Assembly (NCBI GenBank): GCA_937982605.1
Contig: CALJLC010000342.1
Coordinates: 1-40,154, forward strand
Length of the DNA stretch: 40,154 bases
Source: an uncultured Gemmatimonadales bacterium
Lineage (GTDB): Bacteria; Gemmatimonadota; Gemmatimonadetes; Longimicrobiales; Gaopeijiaceae
Reading direction: 5' to 3'
Part shown: positions 2,305 through 39,533 of the stretch, one piece after another
How the letters are laid out: each line of letters begins with the position of its first letter
Numbering within the stretch: the stretch's first letter is position 1
Notes under the pieces: model-generated
Told to the model about the DNA's origin: nothing
The model's input: the letters and a program-made list of their open reading frames with translations, nothing else
The model's database searches: none
Program-made: the position numbers and the translations under genes

Positions 2305-2342
2305 ATGAAGATGTCTTCACGGAGTGTTCATTCGCGGTTCAT
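2305..2342 (+). promoter_or_regulatory. TTCAY composite operator, copy A (upstream of copA)
   Basis: ATGAAG atgt CTTCAC ggagtg TTCAT tcgcgg TTCAT. Direct repeats start at 2316, 2327 and 2338 (11-bp phasing). Ends 40 nt before the copA ATG. Confidence 0.7.
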
Positions 2343-2382
2343 CCGTCGGCTGAATCTTCCACCGAGCCCTACCCTTCTGCCC

Positions 2383-4062
2383 ATGGCCATGGAAACCACC
2401 CGAGAATATGACCGCCGCGATTTCCTGAGGATCGCGTCGACCGTCTCGGTCGGTGCCAGCCTCGGCGTGCGCCCGCGCTCGCTGTTTGCCTCCGTAGAGC
2501 CCTCGGACGCGGAAGCTCTCGACGTCGCCGAGGTCTTCCTGACGATCGATCGACGCGGCTTTCGCGTCGACGAGCGCTCGGCGAACGCTCCGATGATCGG
2601 CGGTTCGATCCCAGGCCCGGTCCTCCGCCTGCGCGAGGGCCAGGACGCGATCATCCACGTCACGAACAACCTCGACGAGGTGAGCTCGATCCACTGGCAC
2701 GGGCTCCTGCTCCCGTTCGATCAGGACGGGGTGCCGGGCTTCAGCTTCGACGGCATCCAGCCCGGCGAGACCTTCACCTACCGCTTCCCCGTCCGACAGG
2801 CCGGCTCGTACTGGTACCACAGCCACTCAGGCACGCAGGAGCAGGAGGGGATGTACGCGCCGATCGTCATCGAGCCGGCGGGAGAGGACCCCGTAGCGTA
2901 CGACCGGGACTACTCGATCGTTCTGTCGGACTGGACGGACGAGAATCCGATGACGGTGCTGCGCAACCTCAAGGGCAACGGCGCCTACTACAACTATTGG
3001 AAACGCACGCTCCCGGAGTTCGTCGGCGGACTCTTCGGGGACGCGGGCCAAACGATCCGCGACCGCACGATGTGGGGCCAGATGCGGATGGACCCGACCG
3101 ACATCGCGGACGTCACCGGCGCAACCTACAGCTATCTCTTGAACGGGAAGTCCGCGGAATCCAACTGGACGGGCCTCTTCCACCCAGGGGAGCGAGTCCG
3201 GCTGCGTTTCGTCAACGCCGCGGCGATGTCCTTCTTCGACGTGAAGATCCCCGGGCTAATGATGACCGTGGTCCAGGCCGACGGTCAGGACGTCGAGCCG
3301 GTGCGCGTCGACGAGCTCAGGATCGGCGTCGCCGAGACGTATGACGTCGTCGTGGAGCCAGAGGCGGGCAACGCCTACACGATCTTCGCCCAATCGATGG
3401 ATCGCTCCGGATTCGCGCGCGGCACGCTCGCCGAGCGGGAGGGGGTGGAAGGCGAGATCCCGCCGATGGATCCACGCCCGGTGCGCAGTATGTCGGACAT
3501 GCCGGGGATGGAGGACCACTCCGGTCACGACATGGCCGGAATGGAGATGGGCGCCGCGTCCGCTGCCGAGATGTCCGAGATGGACCACGCGGCCATGGGT
3601 CACGGGACCCAAACCGCGGGCCTCCGCCGACTCCGCTACGAGGACCTACAGGCGCTGGAGCCCAACCGTGACACGCGGGAGCCGACGCGGGACGTCGTGA
3701 TCCGCCTGACCGGCGACATGGAGCGGTACTTCTGGACGCTCAACGACAAGAAGCTCTCGGACTCCGAGCCGATCCGTCTCACGGTGGGTGAGCGCGTCCG
3801 TCTACTCATGACGAACGAGACGATGATGGAGCACCCCATGCACCTCCACGGGGTCTTCATGGAGCTCCAGAACGGTGCCCACCCGGCGTTCGCGCCGCGC
3901 AAGCACACCATCATCGTGCCTCCGAACCAGACCGTGGAGGCGCACCTCACGTACGAGGATCCCGGCCCGTGGGCGTTCCACTGTCACCTGCTCTTCCACA
4001 TGATGACCGGGATGTTCGCGCGCGTCGAGGTAGCGCCCGCTCCGACGGCGGAGCACCAGTGA
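2383..4062 (+). CDS. copA: Periplasmic multicopper oxidase CopA/PcoA
   Basis: Tat signal (REYDRRDFLRIAS). Four multicopper-oxidase Cu-site motifs (IHWHGL, YWYHSHSG, HPMHLHG, HCHLLFHMMTGM). Met/His-rich insert at about 3487-3606. Start moved from ORF-track 1918 to in-frame ATG 2383. Confidence 0.9.
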   Translation: MAMETTREYDRRDFLRIASTVSVGASLGVRPRSLFASVEPSDAEALDVAEVFLTIDRRGFRVDERSANAPMIGGSIPGPVLRLREGQDAIIHVTNNLDEVSSIHWHGLLLPFDQDGVPGFSFDGIQPGETFTYRFPVRQAGSYWYHSHSGTQEQEGMYAPIVIEPAGEDPVAYDRDYSIVLSDWTDENPMTVLRNLKGNGAYYNYWKRTLPEFVGGLFGDAGQTIRDRTMWGQMRMDPTDIADVTGATYSYLLNGKSAESNWTGLFHPGERVRLRFVNAAAMSFFDVKIPGLMMTVVQADGQDVEPVRVDELRIGVAETYDVVVEPEAGNAYTIFAQSMDRSGFARGTLAEREGVEGEIPPMDPRPVRSMSDMPGMEDHSGHDMAGMEMGAASAAEMSEMDHAAMGHGTQTAGLRRLRYEDLQALEPNRDTREPTRDVVIRLTGDMERYFWTLNDKKLSDSEPIRLTVGERVRLLMTNETMMEHPMHLHGVFMELQNGAHPAFAPRKHTIIVPPNQTVEAHLTYEDPGPWAFHCHLLFHMMTGMFARVEVAPAPTAEHQ

Positions 4063-4760
4063 GCCGCGGCCTCGCTGTCGCGGCCGTCCTCGCGGCCGGC
4101 GCACTGACGGTCGGTCCGGCGCTCCTGCTCGCGCAGGAGATGGACAACCACGTCTTCCACTGGACGCAGTTCGAGCTCGACGCCGCGCGATTCGACGAGT
4201 CGTCGTTCGGCCGTTGGGACGGCGCGGGCTGGATCGGTACCGACTTCGACCGCCTGTGGTGGAGCACCCAGGGTGAGGCGACGGATGCTGCCGTGGGCAG
4301 CGCAGAGGCGATGGCGCTCTACGGCCACTATTTTCGACGGTTCTGGGACGTCGTCGTCGGCTATCGTCAGGACATCGAGCCGATCCCTCAAGGCTACCTA
4401 GCCTTCGGCGTCGCTGGTCTCGCACCCTACTGGTTCGAGGTCGGCGCCTACGGCTTCGTGAGCCAGGAGGGAAAGCCGTCCCTCAGGCTCGAGGCCGAAA
4501 CCGATCTGCTCCTCACCCAGCGGCTCATTCTGAGCCTAGGCGGAGAGGCCGACTGGCTCCTCACCGACGACACCCGGCTCGGCCTCGACGCGGGCGTCTC
4601 GGACCTCGAGCTGGGCTTCAGGACGCGCTTCGAGGTCCGGCGCAAGTTCGCCCCCTACCTCGACCTGCTCTGGGTCCGCGAGAAAGAGGCCGTGCCCGGC
4701 GCCGGCCCCGTGGTCGAGTCCGGGCTCCAGATCGGGGCCGGACTCCGCCTCATCTACTGA
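4059..4760 (+). CDS. copB: Copper resistance outer-membrane protein CopB/PcoB
   Basis: GTG 4059 overlaps the copA stop (GTGA). Signal peptide (VSRGLAVAAVLAAGALTVGPALLLAQE) and a CopB-family pattern (...DRLWWSTQGEA..., barrel-like C-terminus GLQIGAGLRLIY). Confidence 0.85.
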   Translation: MSRGLAVAAVLAAGALTVGPALLLAQEMDNHVFHWTQFELDAARFDESSFGRWDGAGWIGTDFDRLWWSTQGEATDAAVGSAEAMALYGHYFRRFWDVVVGYRQDIEPIPQGYLAFGVAGLAPYWFEVGAYGFVSQEGKPSLRLEAETDLLLTQRLILSLGGEADWLLTDDTRLGLDAGVSDLELGFRTRFEVRRKFAPYLDLLWVREKEAVPGAGPVVESGLQIGAGLRLIY

Positions 4761-4822
4761 CCCCGCCGCAGCGCATGGCTCGGCACGTCCACCTCCCTGG
4801 TAACCGAACGGAGATCGAACAC

Positions 4823-5203
4823 ATGAAGACCCTTCGTGTCACGGCGCTCGGCGCCGCACTGCTCCTGACCCTGACCGCCGCGGCTCCAACGGCCGTGGTC
4901 CCACACTTCGGGCTGAGCAAGTCCTCGCCAGAGGCCGGCGCGACCGTCGAGTCGCCCGCCGAGGTCCGCCTCTGGTTCACGCAGGAGCCGCAGGAGGGCA
5001 CCGTGCAGATCCGGATCCTGGAGGCCGAGGAGGCGGGCGTGCACGTCATGGACGCGGCTCAGGACACCGAGGATCCCACCGTGTTCTCGATCATGCTCCA
5101 CGGCACGCTGCCCGCGGCGACGTACACCGTCTCGTGGCGCGGGATGGGAGAAGACGGCCATGTGGTGCGGGACACCTTCCAGTTCACGGTTGCGGCGCCG
5201 TAG
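4823..5203 (+). CDS. copC: Periplasmic copper-binding protein CopC
   Basis: Start at ATG 4823 (MKTLRVTALGAALLL..., signal peptide). The predicted mature N-terminus HFGLSKSSPEAGATV is typical of CopC. Lies between copB and copD. Confidence 0.85.
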   Translation: MKTLRVTALGAALLLTLTAAAPTAVVPHFGLSKSSPEAGATVESPAEVRLWFTQEPQEGTVQIRILEAEEAGVHVMDAAQDTEDPTVFSIMLHGTLPAATYTVSWRGMGEDGHVVRDTFQFTVAAP

Positions 5204-5248
5204 CGCGCTGACCGGACGGGAGCACCACAGAGGCCTCCGGGCGAGCAC

Positions 5249-6133
5249 ATGAGCGCCTTTCTCGACGCCGTGACCGGCTGGACGCTGTTCGGTGGGCTCG
5301 TCGCCACCACAGGCGCTGTGACAACGCGCTGGCTCGTCCTTCCCAGGTCTCACCCCGGAGCCGTTCCGCCTGCGCAGACGGACGATGTCGCTCGGATCGG
5401 AGCCGTCGGCGCGCTCGCGCTCGTCGTCGGTCTGGGACTCTTTTTCCTGCGCCAACTCGTCGAGTTCCGTGACCCCTTCTCGCCCTGGAGCGACGAAGCG
5501 TCACTTCTGCTGGGGACCGCCTGGGGGCGGACATGGGTCTGGGCGTCGGTCGGTGCGCTCGTCCTCCTCTGCATGTTCGCTATCGCGCGCCGGCACCCGG
5601 CAGGATGGTGGGGCGCGCTCCTTCTCGTGGCCGCGGTCGATGCGTTCCCCGCCCTGACCGGTCACGCCGCGGCTGCTGAGCGCTGGTCGGTGCTCTTCGT
5701 TGCGGCAGACACACTGCACGTGTTGGCCGCCGGTGCATGGATCGGCGGGCTGGCAACCGTACTCTGGTTGGAACGGTCGCACCGCCGTTCTCAGGCCGGC
5801 ATGAGCCTCCTTCCGCAGCTCGTACCTGCGTTCTCTCCGGTCGCGGTGGCCGCGGTGGCGACTCTGGTCGCGACCGGAGCGCTGGCGAGCTGGGAGTTGC
5901 TCCCCTCCCCCGGCGCTTTCCTGACGTCGACGTGGGGGCGGCTGCTGCTCTTGAAACTCGTCGTCCTCGCTGGCGTGCTCGCACTAGGCGCCCGCAACTT
6001 CCGGGTGCTCACGCCGCGGCTGGGATCCAGCGAGGGCAACACCGCGATGCGCAGATCCGCTGCCCTCGAGCTCGCCGTCGCTCAAGTCGTGCTGATCGTG
6101 ACGGCACTCCTGGTGCGGACCTCGCCGATGTAG
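5249..6133 (+). CDS. copD: Copper resistance inner-membrane protein CopD
   Basis: Polytopic membrane protein with CopD-like segments (PALTGHAAAAE, TLHVLAAGAWIGGL). Completes the copABCD gene order. Confidence 0.85.
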   Translation: MSAFLDAVTGWTLFGGLVATTGAVTTRWLVLPRSHPGAVPPAQTDDVARIGAVGALALVVGLGLFFLRQLVEFRDPFSPWSDEASLLLGTAWGRTWVWASVGALVLLCMFAIARRHPAGWWGALLLVAAVDAFPALTGHAAAAERWSVLFVAADTLHVLAAGAWIGGLATVLWLERSHRRSQAGMSLLPQLVPAFSPVAVAAVATLVATGALASWELLPSPGAFLTSTWGRLLLLKLVVLAGVLALGARNFRVLTPRLGSSEGNTAMRRSAALELAVAQVVLIVTALLVRTSPM

Positions 6134-6170
6134 CCACACAATCCAGAAGTCTCCCCCTTGTCGGAGTCCG

Positions 6171-6641
6171 ATGATGAAGATCTCCCCACGAACGTTCTCC
6201 CTCGTGCTCACGATCGCGGCGCTGGGAGGCATCCTGGTCGGGGCAACCTGGCCGAGCGACTCTCCGTTCCACGAGCGCAAGGAGGTCGCCGGCCTGGCCG
6301 TGGTCTTCGGCGCCGAGCCGGAACCGGCGCTGACCGATGAGATCCAGATGCTGGTATGGCGCGTCAGCACCCTCTCGGATCGAGTCGCCTACGACCAGAT
6401 GACCGACGCCGAAGTCACGGTCTCCTTCGGCGGTGAAACGTTCGGACCCTTCGAGGTCCGGCCGGTCCGGGGCACACCCGGACAGTATCAGACCCGACAT
6501 ATCTTCACCGAGGTGGGCGAGTACGGCTCCGTGCTCAGCTTCCGCAAGGGAGAGGAGTCCGAGACCCACTCCGTCGACTTCGCCTTCCGGATCGGCGACC
6601 GTGCCGACATGGAGATCCCTCGGCGCAGGGGTGGTCGATGA
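6171..6641 (+). CDS. Hypothetical exported protein co-transcribed with copABCD
   Basis: 156-aa ORF with an N-terminal TM/signal segment (FSLVLTIAALGGILVGA) and normal amino-acid composition. Its stop overlaps the next start (ATGA at 6638). Family not recognised. Confidence 0.5.
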   Translation: MMKISPRTFSLVLTIAALGGILVGATWPSDSPFHERKEVAGLAVVFGAEPEPALTDEIQMLVWRVSTLSDRVAYDQMTDAEVTVSFGGETFGPFEVRPVRGTPGQYQTRHIFTEVGEYGSVLSFRKGEESETHSVDFAFRIGDRADMEIPRRRGGR

Positions 6642-7498
6642 GGCGGCCAGCTCCGACGAGGCGTGGGCTTCTGGCCCGCGCCTCGCTCCTCTCCATGGCC
6701 CTCGCGCTCGTGGTCGCCGCACCGCTCGCGTCGCACGACTTCTGGCTGATCCCCGACGCGTTCCGCATCGCCTCCGGAGATCGGCTGGAGGTCAGCGGTC
6801 AAACGAGCAGCTCCTTTCCGACCACGCTCAGCGCGGTGACGGTCGACCGCGTCGCCGAGGCACGGCTGGTGACCGCGACCGGATCGGAGCCTACCGAGGA
6901 CCTCTCCACAAGGGGGAACTCCTTGCGACTCGCGCATCGGCCCTCGACGCCGGGCCAGGCACTCGTGGCCGTGAGGATTCACCCCCGATCGATTCCCGAG
7001 TCGCCGGAGAGCTTCCGGAACTACCTCACGCTCGAAGGTGCCCCCGAGGCGCTGGAGCGGTACGAGCGGGAGGGACTCATGCCTACGGACAGCATCGTGC
7101 GTCGGTACGCGAAGTACGCCAAGACGCTGGTGCATGTCGGCTCCGGGGGTAGCACCGCCTACGACCGGCACCTGGGCCATCCGCTCGAGTTCGTCCCCCT
7201 GGACGACCCCGAGGCGGTGGGCGCCGGAGGCATCCTTCGCTTCAGGCTGCTCCTGCTCGGGGAGCCCATCGCGGGAGCACGAGGCCACGCCAGCGCGGCC
7301 GCTCACCGCGACGCGGAGCACGAGTCGGGGCACGCGACGTGGGAGACCGACCGCAGTGGGGAGATCAGCGTCGAGGTGACGACGCCCGGCATCTGGAATG
7401 TCCGGGCGCTCTACATCCTGCCGGCGCCCGCTGGGTCGGGAGCGGACTGGGACGTCCATTGGGCCACGTTCGTGTGGGAGGTCGCCGGCGACGGCTAG
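6638..7498 (+). CDS. DUF4198-family periplasmic (metal-binding, NikM/CbiK-like) protein
   Basis: Signal peptide followed by HDFWLIPD..., the hallmark N-terminus of DUF4198 domains. ATGA overlap with the previous gene. Confidence 0.7.
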   Translation: MRRPAPTRRGLLARASLLSMALALVVAAPLASHDFWLIPDAFRIASGDRLEVSGQTSSSFPTTLSAVTVDRVAEARLVTATGSEPTEDLSTRGNSLRLAHRPSTPGQALVAVRIHPRSIPESPESFRNYLTLEGAPEALERYEREGLMPTDSIVRRYAKYAKTLVHVGSGGSTAYDRHLGHPLEFVPLDDPEAVGAGGILRFRLLLLGEPIAGARGHASAAAHRDAEHESGHATWETDRSGEISVEVTTPGIWNVRALYILPAPAGSGADWDVHWATFVWEVAGDG

Positions 7499-7518: not shown

Positions 7519-7556
7519 ATGAAGCGTGCTTCATCCTCGCTTCATGATCGTTTCAT
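7519..7556 (+). promoter_or_regulatory. TTCAY composite operator, copy B (upstream of porin/cytochrome c operon)
   Basis: ATGAAG cgtg CTTCAT cctcgc TTCAT gatcgt TTCAT. Repeats start at 7530, 7541 and 7552. Ends 90 nt before ATG 7647. Confidence 0.7.
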
Positions 7557-7646
7557 CGGGCTCCCCGGATCTTCTGTCGTCACGGGACGAACGCCACTGC
7601 CCAGCGCTCGCCTCCGTAAGCGACCCCCTAATCTGGATCGCATCCG

Positions 7647-8768
7647 ATGAGAATCTTCCGGGCAGTGGCCACCGCGGGACTCGTCGTCCTGACGCTGATG
7701 CCTGCCTCAGTCCAGGCTCAGAACCGAAGCATATTCGTCGTCGGTGGATACGGGACGACGACGTTCGAGGCCAACGCCAGCAACGTCTACCGAAACGACT
7801 TCGGCGCCTCGGTGTCCCCCGTCATCCTCTACACCATGGGTCGGGACGTGGTGTTCGAGACCGAGCTCGAATTCGGGATGAACGGAGCCAACACGACGAC
7901 GACGCTCGAGTACGCCCAGATCGATTACCTGGGCTTCGAGCGGGTCCAGCTGATCGCGGGGAAGTTCCTCGTGCCATTCGGTGTGTTCGGTGAACGGATC
8001 CACCCGTCGTGGATCAACAAGCTCCCGACCGGACCGGTGGTCTACGGCCACGCGCATGCTGGCGTGGCGGAGACCGGCCTCCTCCCCGTCCTGTCCGACG
8101 CGGGCGTCATGATGAGGTGGGCGCAGCCCTTCAGTGGGAAGCTGCGGCTCGACTTCTCCGCATACGTGACCCAGGGGCCTCAACTGGGCGGCGAAGACGA
8201 CCACGACGAGGAGGAGGGGGCGGGTTTGGAGGACCCGATGCCCTTCTCGGCCCTCGAGGATGGGCCGGCCCCGGCCGTCGCGTTCGGCACGGGATTCGGG
8301 GACAACAACAACACGAAGATGGTCGGCGCCAGACTCGGGCTCCTCTCCGGTGGCTCCGCCGGCATCTACGTGTCCGGCTTCACCGGAAAGTACGACGAGG
8401 AGGACGACCTCTCCTTCACCGCGGGCGGGCTGTCCGTCGAGTGGCGAGTCGCCGGCCTCGAGCTCCGTGGGGAGGGCGTTCTGACCCGCCAGAAGTTCAT
8501 GGACGAGGTCGAGGCGACGACGGAGACGCTCAACCGCAGCGGCTTCTACCTCCAGGGCTCGAAGCGGCTCGATCGATTCGAGCCCGTGGTCCGCTGGGGC
8601 ATGCTCGCCGACGGCACCGTCGACGGGACGACCACGATCGAGGGGCACAACGAGGTCGCGCTGGGACTCAACTTCTGGATGCGCCCGACGATCCCGCTGA
8701 AAATCGCGTACGAATTCCACGAAGGCCTGGACGACCGGATGTACGTCCAGTGGGCCTACGGCTTCTGA
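7647..8768 (+). CDS. Outer-membrane porin-like beta-barrel protein
   Basis: Signal peptide (...LMPASVQAQ), alternating beta-strand pattern and an aromatic C-terminus (YVQWAYGF). Contains an acidic/His loop GGEDDHDEEEGAGLED at about 8181-8260. Confidence 0.65.
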   Translation: MRIFRAVATAGLVVLTLMPASVQAQNRSIFVVGGYGTTTFEANASNVYRNDFGASVSPVILYTMGRDVVFETELEFGMNGANTTTTLEYAQIDYLGFERVQLIAGKFLVPFGVFGERIHPSWINKLPTGPVVYGHAHAGVAETGLLPVLSDAGVMMRWAQPFSGKLRLDFSAYVTQGPQLGGEDDHDEEEGAGLEDPMPFSALEDGPAPAVAFGTGFGDNNNTKMVGARLGLLSGGSAGIYVSGFTGKYDEEDDLSFTAGGLSVEWRVAGLELRGEGVLTRQKFMDEVEATTETLNRSGFYLQGSKRLDRFEPVVRWGMLADGTVDGTTTIEGHNEVALGLNFWMRPTIPLKIAYEFHEGLDDRMYVQWAYGF

Positions 8769-8778
8769 GGTGTCGACC

Positions 8779-9210
8779 ATGAGACAGGCTATTCCCCTGA
8801 TGCTCGCGGCCACGCTGGTCGCGGTGGCCCCGGACTCACTCTTCGCGCAGGCACCGGATCCGGTCCTGCTGGGCGAGGGCGCAACGGTCTACGGTGACTT
8901 CTGTGCCAGCTGCCACAACGCGCGGGCCAGCTCCGAGCGAACCGATCTCGAATGGGTGGCGATCGTGCTGCACATGCGCGCCCGTGCGAACCTGACGAAG
9001 CGCGAGGCAGCGGCCGTGTTGACCTTCCTGCAGGCCACGAACCTCCCGGAGGGCTCGGCCTCCGCCGCCGGACGGCTCGACCGCGATGAGGTCGACCCGA
9101 CGCGGACGGTGATTCCGGCTGAGCTCCGGTCCATCTTGTCGGAAAACGCCATCAACGGGGCTGCCGGCAGCCCCTCCCCGGCACCGACGAAGCTCGGGGA
9201 TGGCCGATGA
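8779..9210 (+). CDS. Mono-heme c-type cytochrome (exported)
   Basis: Signal peptide and a single CxxCH (CASCH). GAGG Shine-Dalgarno lies 8 nt upstream of ATG 8779; GTG 8770 is an alternative start. Confidence 0.7.
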   Translation: MRQAIPLMLAATLVAVAPDSLFAQAPDPVLLGEGATVYGDFCASCHNARASSERTDLEWVAIVLHMRARANLTKREAAAVLTFLQATNLPEGSASAAGRLDRDEVDPTRTVIPAELRSILSENAINGAAGSPSPAPTKLGDGR

Positions 9211-9599
9211 CGACCTGGCGCCCCCTCACGACCGTCCTCGCCCTCTGCGGGCTCGTCACCGCCCAGTCGGCAATCGGCATCGAAGCTCAGGAGAGCGTCG
9301 CCGACGAGCGTACGATCAGCGAGGGGAAAGCGCTCTATGCCTCGGTCGGTCTCTGCTTCGCCTGCCACGGTCCGACGGGCCAGGGCGTGCCCGGGGCCGG
9401 ACCGAACCTGTCCGACGGCGACTGGCTGCACTCCGATGGCTCCCTCGACGGTATCTTCACCCGCATCCTCACCGGGGTGTCGCCGAGCGAAAGCAAGTCG
9501 GGCGTCATCATGCCGCCGAAGGGCGGAAGTGCCATTACCGAGGAGCAGGCCCGATCCATCGCGGCCTACGTCTGGTCGTTGCAGCGAAGAACGTTCTGA
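9207..9599 (+). CDS. Class I c-type cytochrome (exported)
   Basis: ATGA overlap with the previous gene. Signal peptide, heme motif CFACH, and a distal Met region (GVIMPPKGG). Confidence 0.8.
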   Translation: MTTWRPLTTVLALCGLVTAQSAIGIEAQESVADERTISEGKALYASVGLCFACHGPTGQGVPGAGPNLSDGDWLHSDGSLDGIFTRILTGVSPSESKSGVIMPPKGGSAITEEQARSIAAYVWSLQRRTF

Positions 9600-14889: not shown

Positions 14890-14981
14890 GCGAACGCCTC
14901 GCCATCGGGAGATGACAGCATGGTCACGATCGACTCCTGGCCTCCGATGGAACCCTGCACGTGTAACTTCGACCGCCGACC

Positions 14982-15019
14982 ATGAAGCGGGCGTGACATC
15001 ACGGTGAACCCGACTTCAT
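14982..15019 (-). promoter_or_regulatory. TTCAY composite operator, copy C- (upstream of ABC exporter operon)
   Basis: Minus strand reads ATGAAG tcgg GTTCAC cgtgat GTCAC gcccgc TTCAT. Ends 92 nt before GTG 14889. Confidence 0.7.
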
Positions 15020-15042: not shown

Positions 15043-15080
15043 ATGAGCGTTGCTTCATCTCTCGTTCACCCTGATTTCAC
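15043..15080 (+). promoter_or_regulatory. TTCAY composite operator, copy C+ (upstream of PII/SHOCT/YHS/complex-I-like operon)
   Basis: ATGAGC gttg CTTCAT ctctcg TTCAC cctgat TTCAC. Repeats start at 15054, 15065 and 15076. Ends 85 nt before ATG 15166. Back-to-back with copy C-, 23 bp apart. Confidence 0.7.
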
Positions 15081-15165: not shown

Positions 15166-15516
15166 ATGGCACGGATGAAGGACGTGAAGGCGATCGTGAG
15201 GACGGAGTGTGTGGCCGGGCTGCTCGAGGCGTTGAAGGAGTCCGGGGTGTCACGCTTCTACCTGTCCAAGGTCCACGCGATCGGACGCGGGGTGGATCCG
15301 GACGACTACAAGCTCTCGCTGGACGAAGGAAGCGCATACACGGAGAAGACCGCGGTCGAGTTCGTCTGTGCCGCGAGTCGGGCTCAAGAGCTCATCGAGG
15401 TCATCCGAACGTGGGCCGGCACCGGCCGCCGCGGGGACGGCATCGTCATCGTCTCGGACGTGTCCGACGTCGTCAACGTGCGCACGGGCGACCACAACCG
15501 GATCGCTTTGCTCTGA
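15166..15516 (+). CDS. PII (GlnB)-like signal-transduction protein
   Basis: 116 aa. MKDVKAIVRTECVAGLLEALKESG... and the C-terminus GRRGDGIVIVSDVSDVVNVRTGD follow the PII fold signature (G-DGKIFV...IRTGE). The T-loop region is divergent. Confidence 0.7.
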   Translation: MARMKDVKAIVRTECVAGLLEALKESGVSRFYLSKVHAIGRGVDPDDYKLSLDEGSAYTEKTAVEFVCAASRAQELIEVIRTWAGTGRRGDGIVIVSDVSDVVNVRTGDHNRIALL

Positions 15517-15525
15517 GGAGAGGCA

Positions 15526-15807
15526 ATGACGACGATCGCGCAAATCGGTGTCCCGATGTCGGAGCACGGCGGCGGGCTCTTCATGGGGATGCACTGGCTC
15601 TGGTGGGTCGCCTGGCTCGTCACGTTCCTCGGTATCGCCTGGGCGGCGGCCCGCCTGTACCGTGATCGGAGCGAATCGCAGCGTCGGCGGGCGTCGGAGG
15701 ACGCCGCCGAGCAAGTGCTACGCCGCAAGTTCGCCGAAGGAGAGATCGACGAAGACGAGCTCGCTCGGCGACTCCGCGTTCTCAGGGAGACTCAGGGCGG
15801 CTCGTGA
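15526..15807 (+). CDS. SHOCT-domain small membrane protein
   Basis: One TM helix (MHWLWWVAWLVTFLGIAWAAA), then a SHOCT-type C-terminus (LRRKFAEGEIDEDELARRLRVL). Confidence 0.65.
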   Translation: MTTIAQIGVPMSEHGGGLFMGMHWLWWVAWLVTFLGIAWAAARLYRDRSESQRRRASEDAAEQVLRRKFAEGEIDEDELARRLRVLRETQGGS

Positions 15808-15853
15808 CGATGACGTTCCGCCACCCCCACCACCCGTACCAGAGGAGAGACCC

Positions 15854-27828: not shown

Positions 27829-27902
27829 GGGTACGTCGCTCCGGGTGAGAACGTGGCGTCGGAGAACTGCATCCGAACCAGTGTGATGGTATGCACCGGG
27901 AC

Positions 27903-27940
27903 GTGAACGGGTCGTGAAAGGCCGATGAAGAACGGCTCAT
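27903..27940 (-). promoter_or_regulatory. TTCAY composite operator, copy E- (upstream of MBL operon)
   Basis: Minus strand reads ATGAGC cgtt CTTCAT cggcct TTCAC gacccg TTCAC. Ends 74 nt before GTG 27828. Confidence 0.7.
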
Positions 27941-27957: not shown

Positions 27958-27995
27958 ATGATCGCTTCTTCACCACGAGTTCACGACGGCTTCAT
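27958..27995 (+). promoter_or_regulatory. TTCAY composite operator, copy E+ (upstream of GAPDH/ICMT operon)
   Basis: ATGATC gctt CTTCAC cacgag TTCAC gacggc TTCAT. Repeats start at 27969, 27980 and 27991. Ends 96 nt before GTG 28092. Lies 17 bp from copy E-. Confidence 0.7.
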
Positions 27996-28091
27996 CAGAA
28001 ACCCCGGATTCTGAAGTCTCGAACCCCGAATATCCACGCCGGCCGTCGCAGTCCTTGGCCGGCCACCGAAGCTTAGAGCACGGAGGGAAGA

Positions 28092-29141
28092 GTGAGTCAG
28101 CTCGCCATCAGGGTCGCAGTGAACGGCTACGGCGCCATCGGCAAGCGCGTCGCGGACGCGGTCCTGGCTCAGGAGGACATGACGCTCGTCGGGGTCGCGG
28201 ACGTGGCTTCGGACTGGCGCCCCGGCGTCGCCGTTGACAAGGGTATCGACCTCTTCCTCGCCGGCGACGGAAGGCGCGCGAGCCACTCGCCCGACACGTT
28301 CTTCAGCGCGGGCACGTTGAGAGACCTGCTCGCCGAGGTCGACGTCGTGGTCGATTGCACGCCCAAGGGGGTGGGCGCGCGCAACGCCGACCTGTACGGG
28401 GAGGCGGGCGTGAAGTTCGTCGTCCAGGGAGGGGAGTCGCACGAGGTGACCGGGCACTCGTTCGTCGCGGACGCCAACTACGCCTCCGCGATCGGGCGAG
28501 ACTCGACCCGCGTCGTTTCGTGCAATACCACGTCGATCGTCCGCACGCTCACCGCCCTGAAGCGGGCGGGGCTGCTGGGCCGGGCTCGAGGCACGCTACT
28601 TCGAAGGGCGACGGATCCGTGGGAGAGTCACCTGGGCGGAATCATGAACACCGTGGTGCCCGAGCCCGCCATTCCGAGCCACCAGGGGCCCGACGCCCGC
28701 ACGGTGGATCCGGACCTCGACCTGGTCACCGTGGCTGCCAAGGTGCCCGAGACCCTGGCACACGTGCACTTCTGGTCGGTCGATCTGCCCCGTGCCGCGG
28801 ATCGGGAGAACGCCCTGGCCGCGTTCGGCGCGTCGTCGCGGATCGCGAGCGTTCGCATCGATGCCGGGCTCGGCGCCGTCAACGCGGTCAAGGAGATGGC
28901 GCTCGATCAGGGAAGGAGTCGCGGGGACATCCACGAGGTCGTTCTCTGGGAAGACCTCGTCACCGTCGTGGGTCGTGAGCTTCACTACGCCTACATGGTG
29001 GATAACCAGGCGATCGTGGTCCCGGAGACGATCGACGCGATACGGGCGCTGACGTCTCGCGAGCCCGCAGCCGAGGCGTCGATCGACCGGACCAATCAGG
29101 CGCTCGGTATCATCGGCGGCCCGTGGAGCCCCAGGGCGTAG
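28092..29141 (+). CDS. gap: Type II (archaeal-type) glyceraldehyde-3-phosphate dehydrogenase
   Basis: GTG 28092 preceded by GGAGGG. VAVNGYGAIGKRVADAV Rossmann motif and catalytic VVSCNTTSIVRTL. The overall pattern follows archaeal class II GAPDH rather than bacterial GapA. Confidence 0.8.
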   Translation: MSQLAIRVAVNGYGAIGKRVADAVLAQEDMTLVGVADVASDWRPGVAVDKGIDLFLAGDGRRASHSPDTFFSAGTLRDLLAEVDVVVDCTPKGVGARNADLYGEAGVKFVVQGGESHEVTGHSFVADANYASAIGRDSTRVVSCNTTSIVRTLTALKRAGLLGRARGTLLRRATDPWESHLGGIMNTVVPEPAIPSHQGPDARTVDPDLDLVTVAAKVPETLAHVHFWSVDLPRAADRENALAAFGASSRIASVRIDAGLGAVNAVKEMALDQGRSRGDIHEVVLWEDLVTVVGRELHYAYMVDNQAIVVPETIDAIRALTSREPAAEASIDRTNQALGIIGGPWSPRA

Positions 29142-29144
29142 GCC

Positions 29145-29765
29145 ATGCACGTCGGAATGTGGGGGCTGGCGGCCATCGTGATCGTCGCGGTGTCCTGGGT
29201 CATGTACCGCTACCTGGCTCCCTCGACCTGGAAGGAGTGGGCCCAGGCAGGAGCACTGCAGGCGTTCATCATCGCGTTCTACGCCGAGATGTACGGGTTC
29301 CCGCTGACGATCTACTTCCTGACGCGGTTCTTCGGGCTCGACCTCGTCTGGTCGGAAGGGGGGAACCTCTGGACCCAGCTCTTCGGAACGCCCGTCGCGC
29401 ACCTCGTTGCGATGTTCCTCGGGTATGCCGTCGTCTTCTCGGGCGCCTCACTCGTCGCGGAAGGCTGGCGCGCCGTGCACCAGGCCCGGCGTGACGGGCG
29501 GCTCGTGACCGACGGCGTCTACGCGGTGGTGCGACATCCGCAATACACGGGGCTCTTCATGATCGTGATCGGGGAGGGGTTGATCCACTGGCCGACGATC
29601 GTCTCGGTCGTTGCCGCGCCCGTGATCTTCGGCGCATACACGCACCTGGCGAAACGGGAGGAGAGACAGATGATCGCCCAGTACGGCGACGACTACCGAC
29701 GCTACGCCCGACACGTGCCGATGTTCGTTCCGAGGTTCGGCGCGACGACGGCGAGGGAGGCCTGA
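29145..29765 (+). CDS. ICMT/PEMT-family membrane methyltransferase (CzcN/NccN-like)
   Basis: Multi-TM protein with the C-terminal motif LVTDGVYAVVRHPQYTGLFMIVIGEGL ... REERQMIAQYGDDYRRY, typical of isoprenylcysteine carboxyl methyltransferase-like proteins. Starts 3 nt after the GAPDH stop. Confidence 0.8.
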   Translation: MHVGMWGLAAIVIVAVSWVMYRYLAPSTWKEWAQAGALQAFIIAFYAEMYGFPLTIYFLTRFFGLDLVWSEGGNLWTQLFGTPVAHLVAMFLGYAVVFSGASLVAEGWRAVHQARRDGRLVTDGVYAVVRHPQYTGLFMIVIGEGLIHWPTIVSVVAAPVIFGAYTHLAKREERQMIAQYGDDYRRYARHVPMFVPRFGATTAREA

Positions 29766-32885: not shown

Positions 32886-33419
32886 TCATCGGGTGACGGG
32901 TCGGAGGTTGGCGAAAAGGCCATGAAGGGCGGGTGAACCCTCGATGAAGCCGGCTTCAGACTCGCCGTGGGCGTCGTGGGCCGGCGGGTCGGCCGCGAAC
33001 GTCTCCCGAAGCCCGCGGATGAGCTCCGTCTTTTCCGGCTCGGTAAGCGCCGCGTTCCGGTGAAGGACCACGTATCGAGACAGGGGCATCTCGCCGGACT
33101 CCACCATGTCGATCACCTCATCGAGCCCCTCGTTTGGGCCATCCCACTCCGAAAAGTTCAGGTGCTCCCGCCCCTCGTCGACGTCCTTTGCGATGAGCCA
33201 GGACGCGGGGGCGATGCTCGAATACCAGGGCCACACGGTCTCATTCGAGTGGCAGTCGTAGCACGCCCTCCTGGCGAGCTCGCCCGTGCGAGGTGCATCC
33301 CACGCGATCTCACGGACGACCGCGGGGTTGCGCCGATCGGCCGGGATCAGCTGGATCCCGAGACCGACCAGGAGCCCTCCCGTGAGCGCCACCACCGCGG
33401 CTTTCCTCTTTCCAGTCAC
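32886..33419 (-). CDS. Heme-binding-domain (Haem_bd) membrane-anchored protein
   Basis: GTG 33419 preceded by GGAGG with a 6-nt spacer. An N-terminal TM, then ACYDCHSNETVWPWYSSIAPASWLIAKDVDEGREHLNFSEW, the Haem_bd signature. The ORF-track N-terminal extension covers the operator. Confidence 0.7.
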   Translation of the reverse strand: MTGKRKAAVVALTGGLLVGLGIQLIPADRRNPAVVREIAWDAPRTGELARRACYDCHSNETVWPWYSSIAPASWLIAKDVDEGREHLNFSEWDGPNEGLDEVIDMVESGEMPLSRYVVLHRNAALTEPEKTELIRGLRETFAADPPAHDAHGESEAGFIEGSPALHGLFANLRPVTR

Positions 33420-33507
33420 GGGCGCACCTCCAGGCGAAGGGGAGCAGGATTCGGGACCGAGCCGTGTATGCGACCCGACCCATCCTCTGAAGTCTGGCGG
33501 AAGCCAC

Positions 33508-33545
33508 TTGAAGCGGCGGTGAATTGGTGGTGACGATCGCTTCAC
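33508..33545 (-). promoter_or_regulatory. TTCAY composite operator, copy F- (upstream of heme-bd/DUF2933/UbiB/channel operon)
   Basis: Minus strand reads GTGAAG cgat CGTCAC caccaa TTCAC cgccgc TTCAA. Ends 88 nt before GTG 33419. Confidence 0.65.
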
Positions 33546-33627
33546 GAAGAGCCGGAGCGCCGAGCTCGGCGGAGATTCGACAACAAGCCCGGCGGAACCA
33601 GACTCGAAGCGCGGCTATCTTCCCGCG

Positions 33628-38615: not shown

Positions 38616-38719
38616 CTCGAGTCACCTTCCGTTCGTTCGGTTCGGGCATCTCGTTCAGGTCCGAAGCGGCGCCGAACCGCACCAGCCGCTCCTGACGCAC
38701 TGATCATCTCATGCGCAGG

Positions 38720-38757
38720 GTGAACGAGCGGTGAATCTCCCATGAGCGTCGTTTCAT
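38720..38757 (-). promoter_or_regulatory. TTCAY composite operator, copy G- (upstream of Met-rich/GGR/CrtI operon)
   Basis: Minus strand reads ATGAAA cgac GCTCAT gggaga TTCAC cgctcg TTCAC. Ends 104 nt before ATG 38615. Confidence 0.65.
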
Positions 38758-38773
38758 CGACGCCGGGATGGCA

Positions 38774-38811
38774 ATGAAGGCACGTTCACGCCGACTTCAC
38801 GCCGGCTTCAG
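38774..38811 (+). promoter_or_regulatory. TTCAY composite operator, copy G+ (upstream of TlpA-like gene)
   Basis: ATGAAG gcac GTTCAC gccgac TTCAC gccggc TTCAG. Repeats start at 38785, 38796 and 38807. Lies 16 bp from copy G-. Confidence 0.7.
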
Positions 38812-38906
38812 ACGCCGGCTGCGAAGGTCGGGTGCCGGACTCGAAGCAGGAGACGCTCCACACACCGATGCCGTCCCCACCCCTCTCGCGCCCACGCGCG
38901 TACGCG

Positions 38907-39473
38907 ATGGCAGGCCTCATGGTTCTGCTCGTGCTCGGAGTCGCATGGACCACACGCGAGTCCCGAGCGTTTCCCGGCCCGGGGGTCCGAGCCCCCATCT
39001 TCTCGGCCGCGACGCTCGACGGTGACACGGTGTCTCTGGACGACTACCTCGGGCAGGTCGTACTGCTCAACATCTGGGCGACCTGGTGTCCTCCCTGTCG
39101 GGAGGAGATGCCATCGATGCAGCGGCTCTACGAGGAGTTCCGGTCGCGCGGCGAAGCCTTCGCGATCCTCGCCGTCAGCATCGACGCGCCGGCCGGACAC
39201 CGCGATGCGGCCGGCAACGTCGGAGGTGATCTGGCGGCGTTCGCGCGGGAGTACGGGCTGACATTCCCGATCCTCCACGATCCGTCCGGTCGGGTTCAGA
39301 GCGTTTTTCTCACGACCGGGGTCCCGGAGTCCTTCGTGATCGATCGAGAGGGAGTCATCCGGACGCGGGTCGCAGGCGCAACCGAGTGGGACGCGCCGCA
39401 ACGCCGGCAAGCCATCGCGCGCCTCCTGGGCTCGCAGCTGCCCATGGACTCGGCCCTCGCAACCAGCCGATGA
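38907..39473 (+). CDS. TlpA-family thiol:disulfide oxidoreductase (membrane-anchored thioredoxin-like)
   Basis: WATWCPPCREEMP active site in a thioredoxin fold. Start set at ATG 38907 (MAGLMVLLVLGVAW, TM anchor), 95 nt after the operator. ORF-track start 38832 and ATG 38868 are in-frame alternatives. Confidence 0.8.
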   Translation: MAGLMVLLVLGVAWTTRESRAFPGPGVRAPIFSAATLDGDTVSLDDYLGQVVLLNIWATWCPPCREEMPSMQRLYEEFRSRGEAFAILAVSIDAPAGHRDAAGNVGGDLAAFAREYGLTFPILHDPSGRVQSVFLTTGVPESFVIDREGVIRTRVAGATEWDAPQRRQAIARLLGSQLPMDSALATSR

Positions 39474-39495
39474 CCAGCGACTCGGTGATGCGATC

Positions 39496-39533
39496 CTGAA
39501 CGAGGATTCACCTCGATTTCACCACGACTTCAG
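39496..39533 (+). promoter_or_regulatory. TTCAY composite operator, copy H+ (upstream of YHS/HMA-like pair)
   Basis: CTGAAC gagg ATTCAC ctcgat TTCAC cacgac TTCAG. Repeats start at 39507, 39518 and 39529. Ends 72 nt before ATG 39606. Confidence 0.65.

What the first reader, a model, noticed from the sequence alone, without database searches (positions are those of the whole stretch)
2305..39533. A 38-bp composite operator (inverted half-site + three 11-bp-phased TTCAY direct repeats) occurs 10 times and defines a large regulon
Ten copies with identical architecture, written 5'->3' on the strand of the regulated operon. A 2305(+): ATGAAG atgt CTTCAC ggagtg TTCAT tcgcgg TTCAT. B 7519(+): ATGAAG cgtg CTTCAT cctcgc TTCAT gatcgt TTCAT. 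C- 15019(-): ATGAAG tcgg GTTCAC cgtgat GTCAC gcccgc TTCAT. C+ 15043(+): ATGAGC gttg CTTCAT ctctcg TTCAC cctgat TTCAC. E- 27940(-): ATGAGC cgtt CTTCAT cggcct TTCAC gacccg TTCAC. E+ 27958(+): ATGATC gctt CTTCAC cacgag TTCAC gacggc TTCAT. F- 33545(-): GTGAAG cgat CGTCAC caccaa TTCAC cgccgc TTCAA. G- 38757(-): ATGAAA cgac GCTCAT gggaga TTCAC cgctcg TTCAC. G+ 38774(+): ATGAAG gcac GTTCAC gccgac TTCAC gccggc TTCAG. H+ 39496(+): CTGAAC gagg ATTCAC ctcgat TTCAC cacgac TTCAG. Spacing is invariant (6+4+6+6+5+6+5 nt) while the spacers are unrelated in sequence. Every copy lies in an intergenic region and is oriented toward the first gene of an operon. I saw no copy at convergent junctions or upstream of the PepSY/SnoaL pair, and none oriented toward the PLD gene (its upstream region holds only the oppositely oriented F-). 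Direct repeats with 11-bp (one helical turn) phasing are the classic footprint of OmpR/PhoB-type winged-helix response regulators. Copper-responsive members of that family are common. The extra inverted half-site (ATGAAG is the complement of CTTCAT) suggests a higher-order, four-protomer complex. None of the ~47 CDSs in the window looks like a DNA-binding protein, so the regulator is presumably encoded elsewhere.
Basis: partly seen in the sequence, partly recalled or inferred. Interest (0 to 1): 0.85.

Follow-up and report, generated by a model that had tools for sequence, protein, structure and literature searches.

The report
CopR/CusR-type operator of a copper island
The repeated 38-bp motif is real and is most likely the docking site of a copper-sensing two-component response regulator (CopR/CusR type) that switches on 11 promoters of a metal-stress gene island in an uncultured Gemmatimonadota-like bacterium; it is a lineage-specific version of a well-known kind of bacterial switch.

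Summary
All 10 copies are where stated and an 11th (32922-32959, minus) was missed; shuffles give 0 matches. Ten of 11 lie in the 8% of the window that is intergenic, each pointing at an operon. The unit is four pentamers phased 11 bp apart (ATGAA, then 3x TTCAY). A -10-like nAnnnT follows at a fixed offset, so the repeats cover the -35 region (class II activator layout).

The same pattern occurs in MAGs of Gemmatimonadota, Nitrospirota, Verrucomicrobiota, Chloroflexota and cyanobacteria. The two protein families that recur most often beside it there are an OmpR-type response regulator and a histidine kinase. Both score best against the heavy-metal CzcR/SilR/CopR and CzcS/SilS/CopS models, just below cut-off.

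The architecture is already known. The ATGAAG-N4-CTTCAY part is a 6-4-6 inverted core like the E. coli CusR box (ATGACA-N4-TGTCAT) and the AgrR box, followed by in-phase direct repeats. The copper-responsive copM and copB promoters of Synechocystis carry TTCAT-N6-TTCAT with the same -10 offset.

This is a new member of a known kind. No regulator gene is in the window, and copper as the signal is inferred from gene content.

The parts
2305..2342 (+). Site A: ATGAAG-N4-CTTCAC-N6-TTCAT-N6-TTCAT, upstream of copA-copB-copC-copD-155aa-DUF4198 (2383-7498)
   Evidence: 0 mismatches. CopA most likely starts at ATG 2383 or 2389, which gives a Tat-like DRRDFLR signal. Pfam.
7519..7556 (+). Site B, upstream of the porin-like 373-aa gene and two cytochrome c genes (7647-9599)
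   Evidence: 0 mismatches. Gene start, d=128. -10-like GATCTT at 7568-7573.
14982..15019 (-). Site C-, upstream of MacB1-MacB2-ABC/YHS ATPase-LolA-like-428aa (14889 down to 9690)
   Evidence: d=130. -10-like GAAGTT at 14965-14970.
15043..15080 (+). Site C+, upstream of P-II-like, SHOCT, 52-aa YHS and NuoA/D/H/JK/L/M/N-like genes (15166-24252)
   Evidence: d=123. The homologous P-II+SHOCT pair in L053 also has the motif (d=96). This site lacks the A of the -10-like element.
27903..27940 (-). Site E-, upstream of beta-CASP metallo-beta-lactamase, GATase and a 424-aa gene (27828 down to about 24301)
   Evidence: d=112. -10-like TACCAT at 27886-27891.
27958..27995 (+). Site E+, upstream of the GAPDH-like and PEMT-like genes (28092-29765)
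   Evidence: d=134. -10-like GATTCT at 28007-28012.
32922..32959 (-). It lies inside the 3' end of the Haem_bd CDS and has a degenerate fifth repeat.
   Evidence: (1 mismatch). d=168. -10-like CAACCT at 32905-32910.
33508..33545 (-). Site F- (weakest, 3 mismatches), upstream of the Haem_bd gene (33420 down to 32887). It is also the only site in the PLD upstream region.
   Evidence: d=125. -10-like CAGACT at 33491-33496. The Haem_bd homologue in L006 has the motif at d=117.
38720..38757 (-). Site G-, upstream of the LTXXQ gene and FAD-dependent oxidoreductases (38615 down to 34961)
   Evidence: d=142. -10-like GATGAT at 38703-38708.
38774..38811 (+). Site G+, upstream of the AhpC/TSA redoxin gene (start between 38832 and 38907, end 39473)
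   Evidence: -10-like GAAGGT at 38823-38828.
39485..39533 (+). Site H+ (39496-39533) plus an extra in-phase inverted half-site GTGAT at 39485. It lies upstream of a 60-aa YHS gene (39606-39788) and an HMA-like gene (39785-40060).
   Evidence: d=110. -10-like CATCAT at 39545-39550.

Best explanation
Each 38-bp unit is the operator of a promoter activated by a CopR/CusR-like (OmpR/PhoB-family) response regulator, whose gene lies outside this contig together with that of its CopS/CusS-like sensor kinase.

The operator has two parts. The first is a 16-bp 6-4-6 inverted core, ATGAAG-N4-CTTCAY, which is the counterpart of the E. coli CusR box ATGACA-N4-TGTCAT and the C. metallidurans AgrR box ATKACA-N4-TGTMAT. 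The second is two further TTCAY half-sites, in phase at 11 bp, on the promoter-proximal side. [quoted passage not shown]

A -10-like nAnnnT hexamer sits 11 nt after the last repeat. With the -10 at motif positions 50-55, the repeats fall at about -61 to -24. The regulator would then replace a -35 element and recruit RNA polymerase (class II activation). The predicted transcription start is about 62 nt from the motif start, leaving 5' UTRs of about 20-100 nt in this window.

When the periplasmic metal signal (most likely Cu) rises, the phosphorylated regulator would occupy all 11 operators. That would co-induce about 40 genes: CopABCD, a MacB-type exporter with a YHS-domain ATPase, YHS and HMA proteins, an LTXXQ protein, a redoxin, a P-II-like protein plus a complex-I/Mrp-like module, and others.

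Shown: the motif, its phasing, its statistical significance, its intergenic and oriented placement, the fixed -10-like element, its recurrence across phyla, its genomic linkage to CopRS-like gene pairs, and its match to known CusR, AgrR and Synechocystis CopR promoter architecture. Inferred: which protein binds, activation as opposed to repression, copper as the signal, and the stoichiometry.
For: (1) Statistics: 11 matches against 0 in shuffles. Ten of 11 sites are in the 8% of the window that is intergenic, P about 1e-10. All sites are oriented toward a gene start 78-168 bp downstream.

(2) Only the pentamers are conserved. Positions 2-4, 13-15, 24-26 and 35-37 are invariant or nearly so in 31 sites (11 from the window and 20 from Gemmatimonadota loci), while the spacers are free.

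(3) The A at position 51 and the T at position 55 are each present in 27/31 sites against a 69% GC background. Spacing to either proximal TTCAY (10 or 21 nt) is wrong for a -35 hexamer, so the repeats substitute for a -35. In Verrucomicrobiota the start codons lie 60-66 nt from the motif start, at the predicted transcription start.

(4) A genome scan found the exact pattern in at least 120 places. These are concentrated in Nitrospirota, Gemmatimonadota and Verrucomicrobiota MAGs, and several loci carry multiple or divergent copies. The fifth base A was not required by the pattern but is present in 93/125 hits.

(5) Unbiased ORF clustering of those loci ranks an OmpR-type response regulator first (42 loci) and a histidine kinase second (41 loci). 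They are often immediately divergent from the motif, or arranged as motif, small gene, regulator, kinase.

(6) All 10 regulators tested score best against TIGR01387 (226-277 bits, cut-off 279). All 3 kinases tested score best against TIGR01386 (251-280 bits, cut-off 292.55).

(7) Known relatives have the same layout. The AgrR box is a 6-4-6 inverted repeat with in-phase direct repeats, acts as a type II activator, is autoregulated and serves divergent operons (PMC7380067). CopR and CusR recognise TGACA-N4-TGTCA, with multiple half-sites extending the footprints (PMC12428095). The E. coli cusR-cusC region reads ATGACAatttTGTCATttttcTGTCAC. Synechocystis PcopM and PcopB read TTCAT-N6-TTCAT followed by a -10-like hexamer 10-11 nt later, and the literature describes these as 'two direct repeats likely involved in regulation' (PMC4890671).

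(8) Homologous genes elsewhere keep the motif: PLD in L088 (d=109), Haem_bd in L006 (d=117), and P-II+SHOCT in L053 (d=96).

(9) The regulated genes are metal-related.
Against: No response regulator or kinase gene is present in the window, and sister contigs do not extend past its ends. The cognate regulator of this organism is therefore unidentified.

The regulators and kinases linked to the motif elsewhere score just below the curated cut-offs of the heavy-metal subfamilies.

The half-site (TTCAY/ATGAAG) differs from the proteobacterial TGACA/ATTACA. The recognition helices of the linked regulators differ between phyla without an obvious specificity code.

There is no transcription-start, expression or binding data, so activation and copper responsiveness are inferred.

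Several regulated genes have no known link to copper: the beta-CASP hydrolase, the GAPDH-like protein, PEMT, the ABC1 kinase and the Nuo-like module.

Linkage frequencies are therefore rough and probably underestimates.
Confidence: 0.8

Rival explanations
1. The operator belongs to the same class of OmpR-family response regulator, but the signal is not copper. It could be another metal (Zn, Cd, Ag, Ni), peroxide or redox stress (as for HprR or RppA), or general envelope stress. The regulon would then be a broad envelope/redox stress regulon.
For: The TIGR01387 family includes regulators for Zn/Cd/Co and Ag. HprR and RppA are among the next-best hits. Many regulon members are redox or envelope genes (redoxin, LTXXQ, cytochromes c, FAD oxidoreductases, CcmF, YceI, PepSY) with no specific link to copper.
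Against: The window's first and largest metal module is copABCD. YHS, TRASH and HMA domains recur in four motif-driven units. The only experimentally characterised promoters found here with TTCAT-N6-TTCAT repeats are the copper-induced copM and copB promoters of Synechocystis.
Confidence: 0.13
2. The bound regulator represses instead of activating. By covering about -61 to -24 it would block RNA polymerase until the signal releases it.
For: The site overlaps the -35 region. [quoted passage not shown]
Against: No -35-like hexamer is present at the proper 16-18 nt spacing from the -10-like element, so the promoters look activator-dependent. Relatives with this layout (AgrR, CusR, CopR) are activators. 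The orientation toward the gene is strictly kept, as expected when the regulator must contact RNA polymerase.
Confidence: 0.05
3. It is a Pho box, the site of a PhoB/PhoP-type phosphate-starvation regulator. Actinomycete PHO boxes are 11-nt direct repeats with a GTTCAC core (from my own knowledge), and the window holds a PLD gene and a porin with weak similarity to Porin_O_P.
For: The repeats are 11-bp phased TTCAC direct repeats. The porin-like gene gives a weak Porin_O_P hit at 20.6 bits, below the cut-off, and there is a PLD gene.
Against: There are no pst, pho or phn genes in the window. The linked regulators score higher against the heavy-metal model than against PhoB. The inverted core is a CusR/AgrR-type feature and is not found in Pho boxes. 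The regulated genes are metal genes.
Confidence: 0.01
4. It is not a protein-binding operator. It could be a dispersed REP/MITE-like repeat, an RNA hairpin or leader, or a conserved N-terminal peptide encoded from the leading ATG.
For: Most copies begin with ATG or GTG, and two coincide with listed ORF starts. ATGAAG-N4-CTTCAT could in principle fold as a 6-bp hairpin.
Against: The spacers are unrelated and nothing is conserved downstream. There is no Rfam match. The TTCAY repeats would be read in three different frames, and the real gene starts are 78-168 bp downstream. The outer pairs of the inverted repeat are unpaired in 12/31 and 17/31 sites with little compensation. The motif lies upstream of the predicted transcription start. 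It is conserved across phyla upstream of unrelated genes.
Confidence: 0.01

Closest known systems
AgrR box of Cupriavidus metallidurans (a CopR/CusR-type regulator; PMC7380067)
   Same: [quoted passage not shown] Both parts are needed for binding and activation. Its position fits a type II activator, it serves divergent operons, and the regulator is positively autoregulated.
   Different: The half-site is ATKACA/TGTMAT, whereas here it is ATGAAG/CTTCAY. In AgrR operators the direct repeats are optional and occur on either side. Here two promoter-proximal repeats form a fixed part of every unit.
E. coli CusR box, and the P. aeruginosa / P. putida CopR sites (TGACA-N4-TGTCA; PMC12428095; cusR-cusC sequence read)
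   Same: The geometry is the same, and the outer bases are identical: ATGAcA-N4-TgTCAT against ATGAag-N4-cTTCAY. At cusC one further in-phase direct repeat (TGTCAC) points toward the regulated gene. The regulator belongs to the heavy-metal TIGR01387 family and has a CusS/CopS-type kinase partner.
   Different: The inner two bases of each half-site differ. E. coli has one extra repeat where this motif has two. The E. coli regulon is small (cusRS and cusCFBA, from my own knowledge), whereas here there are 11 promoters in 40 kb.
Synechocystis sp. PCC 6803 CopRS (annotated RppA/RppB) and its copMRS and copBAC promoters
   Same: The half-site is the same (TTCAT), the 11-bp phasing is the same, and a -10-like hexamer follows about 10-11 nt after the last repeat. 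The promoters are copper-induced (PMC4890671, PMC4335983). The layout motif, small gene, regulator, kinase recurs in the Nitrospirota and Verrucomicrobiota loci.
   Different: Only two direct repeats are evident, and there is no in-phase inverted half-site. The nearest ATGAA is 34 nt upstream of the first repeat, which is out of phase.
PhoB/PhoP Pho boxes
   Same: They are direct repeats phased one helical turn apart that replace the -35 element about 10 bp upstream of the -10 (class II activation). This comparison rests on my own knowledge.
   Different: The consensus and the regulon differ. Pho boxes have no inverted core. The regulators linked to this motif are of the heavy-metal type.

Membership tests
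Operator of a CusR/CopR/AgrR-type (TIGR01387) heavy-metal response regulator | A 16-bp 6-4-6 imperfect inverted-repeat core | tested here: met
   ATGAAG-N4-CTTCAY is present in all 11 window sites and in 20 Gemmatimonadota sites. Pairs 2-15, 3-14 and 4-13 are symmetric in 30-31 of 31 sites. Compare the E. coli ATGACA-N4-TGTCAT and the AgrR box.
Operator of a CusR/CopR/AgrR-type (TIGR01387) heavy-metal response regulator | Half-site sequence TGACA/TGTCA or ATTACA/TGTAAT | tested here: not met
   The half-site here is ATGAA/TTCAY. Only the outer ATGA...TCAT is shared with the CusR box. The TTCAT half-site is, however, found at the Synechocystis CopR-dependent promoters.
Operator of a CusR/CopR/AgrR-type (TIGR01387) heavy-metal response regulator | [quoted passage not shown] | tested here: met
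   Two further TTCAY repeats at 11-bp phase are present in every unit. F2 has a fifth, degenerate repeat and H+ has an extra upstream half-site.
Operator of a CusR/CopR/AgrR-type (TIGR01387) heavy-metal response regulator | Promoter-proximal position compatible with class II activation | tested here: inconclusive
   A -10-like nAnnnT lies 11 nt after the last repeat in 27/31 sites, and no properly spaced -35 is present. Verrucomicrobiota start codons fall at the predicted transcription start. No transcription-start data exist.
Operator of a CusR/CopR/AgrR-type (TIGR01387) heavy-metal response regulator | Cognate response regulator and kinase genes of the heavy-metal subfamilies, typically adjacent and autoregulated | tested here: inconclusive
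   No regulator or kinase gene is in the window. In other genomes the regulator and kinase are the two top-ranked neighbours of the motif (42 and 41 loci). Their best models are TIGR01387 and TIGR01386, but the scores are just below the curated cut-offs.
Operator of a CusR/CopR/AgrR-type (TIGR01387) heavy-metal response regulator | Binding by the phosphorylated regulator and induction by Cu/Ag | not testable with these tools
   This needs EMSA, DAP-seq or reporter assays.
Pho box (PhoB/PhoP) | Control of phosphate-acquisition genes (pst, pho, phn), with a PhoB-type regulator linked | tested here: not met
   No such genes are in the window. The linked regulators score lower against PhoB models than against TIGR01387.
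Dispersed repeat (REP/MITE) or structured RNA leader | Conservation of the whole element including spacers; covariation or an Rfam match | tested here: not met
   The spacers and flanks are unrelated. There is no Rfam hit. The putative stem shows no compensatory pattern.

The most novel reading that the evidence does not exclude
The fixed four-half-site unit may define a previously undescribed TTCAY-type branch of CopRS regulons shared by Gemmatimonadota, Nitrospirota, Verrucomicrobiota, Chloroflexota and cyanobacteria. In this reading the copper response reaches well beyond efflux and oxidation. It would extend to a P-II-like protein plus a YHS protein plus a complex-I/Mrp-like membrane module in the window, and in Nitrospira possibly to amoC. 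That would imply copper-dependent rewiring of energy metabolism. It would also imply a mixed symmetric-plus-tandem assembly of four regulator protomers on the DNA.
Probability: 0.25. Interest if true: 0.6.

Novelty: new member of a known kind. Interest (0 to 1): 0.35.

Why it matters
It gives a ready-made, testable regulon map for metal stress in phyla that have almost no genetics (Gemmatimonadota, Nitrospirota, Verrucomicrobiota). A 38-bp pattern predicts which operons respond to a CopRS-like system.

It assigns a probable physiological context, metal or envelope stress, to many poorly characterised genes. These include the P-II-like/SHOCT/YHS plus Nuo-like module, DUF5676, Haem_bd, PCYCGC, DUF3570, a beta-CASP hydrolase, an ABC1 kinase and PLD.

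It also shows that the CusR/AgrR operator design, an inverted core plus in-phase direct repeats, is conserved across distant phyla even though the half-site sequence drifts. That is useful for predicting the binding sites of this regulator family. The mechanism itself is not new.

Tried and rejected
(1) Start codon or N-terminal peptide reading. Rejected: the pentamers fall in three different frames, GC3-supported genes start 78-168 bp downstream, and GTG and CTG variants exist.

(2) Long RNA leader or riboswitch. There is no Rfam hit and nothing is conserved beyond the 38 bp. The hairpin test was negative.

(3) The proximal TTCAY acting as a -35 hexamer or an ECF-type promoter. The spacing to the -10-like element is 10 or 21 nt, which is incompatible.

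(4) Search for the regulator in this organism. Pfam on all ORFs found none. Sister-assembly contigs found through exact-protein look-ups do not extend past the window ends, and three look-ups found no record. The 270 bp gained on the left flank encodes a non-regulatory C-terminus.

(5) A metagenome scan with the P-II-like protein returned only the source contig.

(6) A near-identity search of the plasmid collection found only about 72% identity to the Ralstonia copA gene, so this is not a known plasmid island.

(7) The Giner-Lamia 2012 paper on Synechocystis CopRS is not held. I read the promoters directly from pSYSX instead.

(8) The PDB holds no CusR or CopR DNA complex among the hits. The recognition-helix alignment gave no simple explanation for the half-site difference.

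(9) Literature searches for the TTCAT/TTCAC motif together with response regulators found no prior description of this composite site. This is weak negative evidence, because the searches cover only the open-access texts held.

Full report

Yes. All ten copies are at the stated coordinates and strands. The full pattern ATGAA-N6-TTCAY-N6-TTCAY-N6-TTCAY, allowing up to 3 mismatches, gives 11 matches in the window and none in 100 dinucleotide-preserving shuffles. The three-repeat part alone, allowing up to 1 mismatch, also gives 11 matches against 0.

The extra copy is at 32922-32959 on the minus strand. It lies upstream of the DUF5676 gene and inside the 3' end of the Haem_bd CDS.

The unit is best read as four pentamers, all phased 11 bp apart (positions 1, 12, 23, 34), with the first one inverted. 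The spacers are unrelated, and an alignment of the eleven regions shows no conservation downstream of the 38 bp. Rfam finds nothing there.

**2. Gene map**

The window is 68.5% GC. GC3 analysis, Pfam and the gene calls on sister contigs give about 41 genes in about 13 transcription units.

| Site | Strand | Transcription unit |
|---|---|---|
| none | - | PepSY, SnoaL |
| A | + | copA (multicopper oxidase), copB, copC, copD, 155-aa gene, DUF4198 |
| B | + | porin-like gene, two cytochrome c genes |
| C- | - | MacB x2, ABC ATPase with YHS domain, LolA-like gene, 428-aa gene |
| C+ | + | P-II-like, SHOCT, 52-aa YHS, NuoA/D/H/JK/L/M/N-like |
| E- | - | beta-CASP hydrolase, GATase, 424-aa gene |
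| E+ | + | GAPDH-like, PEMT-like |
| F2 | - | DUF5676, ABC1 kinase, ion-channel-like gene |
| F- | - | Haem_bd |
| none | + | PLD |
| G- | - | LTXXQ, FAD oxidoreductases |
| G+ | + | AhpC/TSA redoxin |
| H+ | + | YHS, HMA-like |

- The leading ATG/GTG of the motif is not a start codon. Real starts are 78-168 bp from the motif start, and the three TTCAY repeats would fall in three different reading frames.
- Ten of 11 sites lie in the 8% of the window that is intergenic (P about 1e-10).
- Every site points at the first gene of a unit.
- No DNA-binding protein is encoded in the window.
- The contig comes from a metagenome (ENA ERZ8699xx), and sister contigs do not extend beyond its ends.

**3. 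Promoter geometry**

I aligned, without gaps, the 11 window sites and 20 sites from Gemmatimonadota loci. This reveals an A at position 51 and a T at position 55, each present in 27/31 sites against a 69% GC background. That is a -10-like nAnnnT hexamer at positions 50-55, 11 nt after the last repeat.

The distance from either proximal TTCAY to this hexamer is 10 or 21 nt, which is wrong for a -35 element. The repeats therefore occupy the -35 region and do not themselves constitute a -35. With the -10 at 50-55, the operator spans about -61 to -24 and the predicted transcription start is about 62 nt from the motif start.

There is independent support. In about a dozen Verrucomicrobiota loci the start codon of the downstream gene lies 60-66 nt from the motif start, which implies leaderless mRNAs that begin at the predicted start site.

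**4. Evidence from other genomes**

An exact scan of 185,579 species-representative genomes used the pattern ATGA-N7-TTCAY-N6-TTCAY-N6-TTCAY.

- The hits are concentrated in MAGs of Nitrospirota, Gemmatimonadota and Verrucomicrobiota (Opitutaceae, Pedosphaera, Limisphaerales). There are further hits in Chloroflexota, Acidobacteriota, Planctomycetota, Actinomycetota and cyanobacteria, and some probable chance hits in AT-rich genomes.
- The fifth base A was not required by the pattern but is present in 93 of 125 hits.
- Several 8-kb blocks hold multiple or back-to-back copies: L035 has five, L088 four, and L034, L039 and L053 have divergent pairs.
- Unbiased all-against-all clustering of every ORF of at least 100 aa in these loci ranks an OmpR-type response regulator first (42 loci) and a ~470-aa histidine kinase second (41 loci). 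Next come a MacB-type ABC ATPase (20 loci), an FtsX permease (13 loci) and YceI (10 loci).
- The regulator gene is often immediately divergent from the motif (L008, L013, L021, L036, L089, L091). Alternatively the layout is motif, small gene, regulator, kinase (L020, L057, L062, L074, L084, L094).
- All ten regulators tested score best against TIGR01387, the CzcR/SilR/CopR heavy-metal response regulators, at 226-277 bits against a cut-off of 279.2. The next-best models are RppA, CusR and HprR.
- The three kinases tested score best against TIGR01386, at 251-280 bits against a cut-off of 292.55.
- Genes directly downstream of the motif elsewhere include YceI, small PepSY proteins, PCYCGC proteins, an outer-membrane efflux protein, CcmF, DUF3570 and AmoC.
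- Homologues of window genes also carry the motif: PLD in L088 (d=109), Haem_bd in L006 (d=117), and the P-II-like plus SHOCT pair in L053 (d=96).

**5. Comparison with what is known**

- The AgrR study (PMC7380067) describes, for a CopR/CusR-type regulator, a 16-bp 6-4-6 imperfect inverted repeat (ATKACA-N4-TGTMAT). [quoted passage not shown] Both parts are required, the regulator acts as a type II activator, it is autoregulated, and it serves divergent operons.
[quoted passage not shown] Multiple half-sites extend the footprints there.
- I read the E. coli K-12 cusR-cusC intergenic region directly. It is ATGACAatttTGTCATttttcTGTCAC, which is a 6-4-6 core plus one in-phase direct repeat toward cusC. 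It shares the outer bases (ATGA...TCAT) with the window motif.
- On Synechocystis plasmid pSYSX the order is copM (DUF305), then the genes annotated rppA and rppB, which I take to be copR and copS, then copBAC. Both copper-induced promoters carry TTCAT-N6-TTCAT followed 10-11 nt later by a -10-like hexamer (cAgacT and aAcacT). PMC4890671 notes 'two direct repeats likely involved in regulation' in PcopM.

The window motif therefore combines the CusR/AgrR core geometry with the TTCAT half-site of the cyanobacterial CopR promoters.

**6. Mechanism (best explanation, confidence about 0.8)**

A CopRS-like two-component system encoded elsewhere in the genome senses periplasmic metal, most likely copper. 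[quoted passage not shown] It probably binds as two dimers, one on the symmetric core and one on the tandem repeats. It then activates transcription from promoters that lack a -35 element.

In divergent pairs each promoter has its own unit, 16-23 bp apart in this window. In L039 the two units overlap and share the palindromic core, giving three inverted and three direct half-sites.

PLD has no site of its own. Its homologue in L088 does have one, and the symmetric core of F-, 82 bp upstream, could conceivably serve it.

Shown: the motif, its significance, its placement, the -10 offset, the cross-phylum recurrence, the linkage to the regulator and kinase, and the architectural match. Inferred: the identity of the binder in this organism, activation, copper as the signal, and stoichiometry.

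**7. Rivals**

- A non-copper signal acting through the same class of regulator (about 0.13).
- Repression instead of activation (about 0.05).
- A Pho box (about 0.01). There are no pho genes, the linked regulator is of the heavy-metal type, and Pho boxes lack an inverted core.
- A REP/MITE element, an RNA leader or a peptide (about 0.01). The evidence against is the free spacers, the lack of an Rfam hit, the absence of compensation in the putative stem, and the position upstream of the predicted transcription start.

**8. Verdict**

This is a lineage-specific member of a known kind of operator. Its interest lies in the density of sites (11 promoters and about 40 genes in 40 kb) and in the breadth of the phyla that carry it. 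It also places unexpected genes under a metal-responsive regulator, notably the P-II-like/YHS plus complex-I/Mrp-like module, a beta-CASP hydrolase and an ABC1 kinase. Interest 0.35.

Noticed in passing
window 15166-24252 (+): The C+ operon couples a P-II-like protein, a SHOCT protein and a 52-aa YHS/TRASH protein to NuoA/D/H/JK/L/M/N-like subunits. No NuoB/C/E/F/G/I were detected. This is a complex-I/Mrp/Ehr-like membrane module apparently under the metal-responsive box. The P-II+SHOCT pair with an upstream motif recurs in L053 (d=96).
   Followed up: partly
L052 594-1713 (+); L109 5887-6981 (-): In two Nitrospira MAGs a good copy of the motif lies 283 and 249 bp upstream of an amoC gene (PF04896, 348 bits). 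This hints that a CopR-like regulator may control a subunit gene of the copper-dependent ammonia monooxygenase.
   Followed up: no
L018, L025, L040, L044, L063, L064, L067, L069, L071, L093, L125: In Verrucomicrobiota the downstream start codon lies 60-66 nt from the motif start, at the predicted transcription start, which implies leaderless mRNAs. In L018, L040 and L064 the motif sits in the short gap between the response regulator and kinase genes. The usual first gene downstream is a YceI-like protein.
   Followed up: partly
L039 286-345: Two divergent operators overlap and share the palindromic core. This gives six half-sites (three inverted, three direct), all phased 11 bp apart, and is a compact bidirectional version of the unit.
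   Followed up: partly
window 39485-39489 and 32911-32915: Site H+ has an additional in-phase inverted half-site (GTGAT) 11 bp upstream of its CTGAA. Site F2 has a degenerate fifth direct repeat (TTCGC) 11 bp downstream. The number of half-sites per unit is therefore not strictly four.
   Followed up: partly
window 32922-32959 (-): The newly found site F2 lies entirely inside the 3' end of the Haem_bd coding sequence (32887-33420). It is an internal promoter for the downstream DUF5676, ABC1 kinase and channel-like genes.
   Followed up: partly
L132 3010-3040 (E. coli K-12 cusR-cusC intergenic region): Besides the published palindromic CusR box, the sequence shows one more in-phase direct repeat toward cusC: ATGACAatttTGTCATttttcTGTCAC. 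This is the same design principle as the window motif.
   Followed up: yes
window 33546-33627 and 2260-2304: PLD and the PepSY/SnoaL unit have no site of their own, yet the PLD homologue in L088 has one at d=109. PLD in the window may depend on the symmetric core of F-, or it may have left the regulon.
   Followed up: partly
alignment A2 (response regulators of L020, L021, L036, L039, L040, L045, L053, L064, L083, L089, with CusR and Synechocystis CopR): The recognition-helix residues of the motif-linked regulators differ between phyla (for example DVHVGHLRRK, DAHIRSLRVK, DVTVYHLREK) even though the half-site is shared. No simple residue-to-base code explains TTCAY versus TGTCA.
   Followed up: partly
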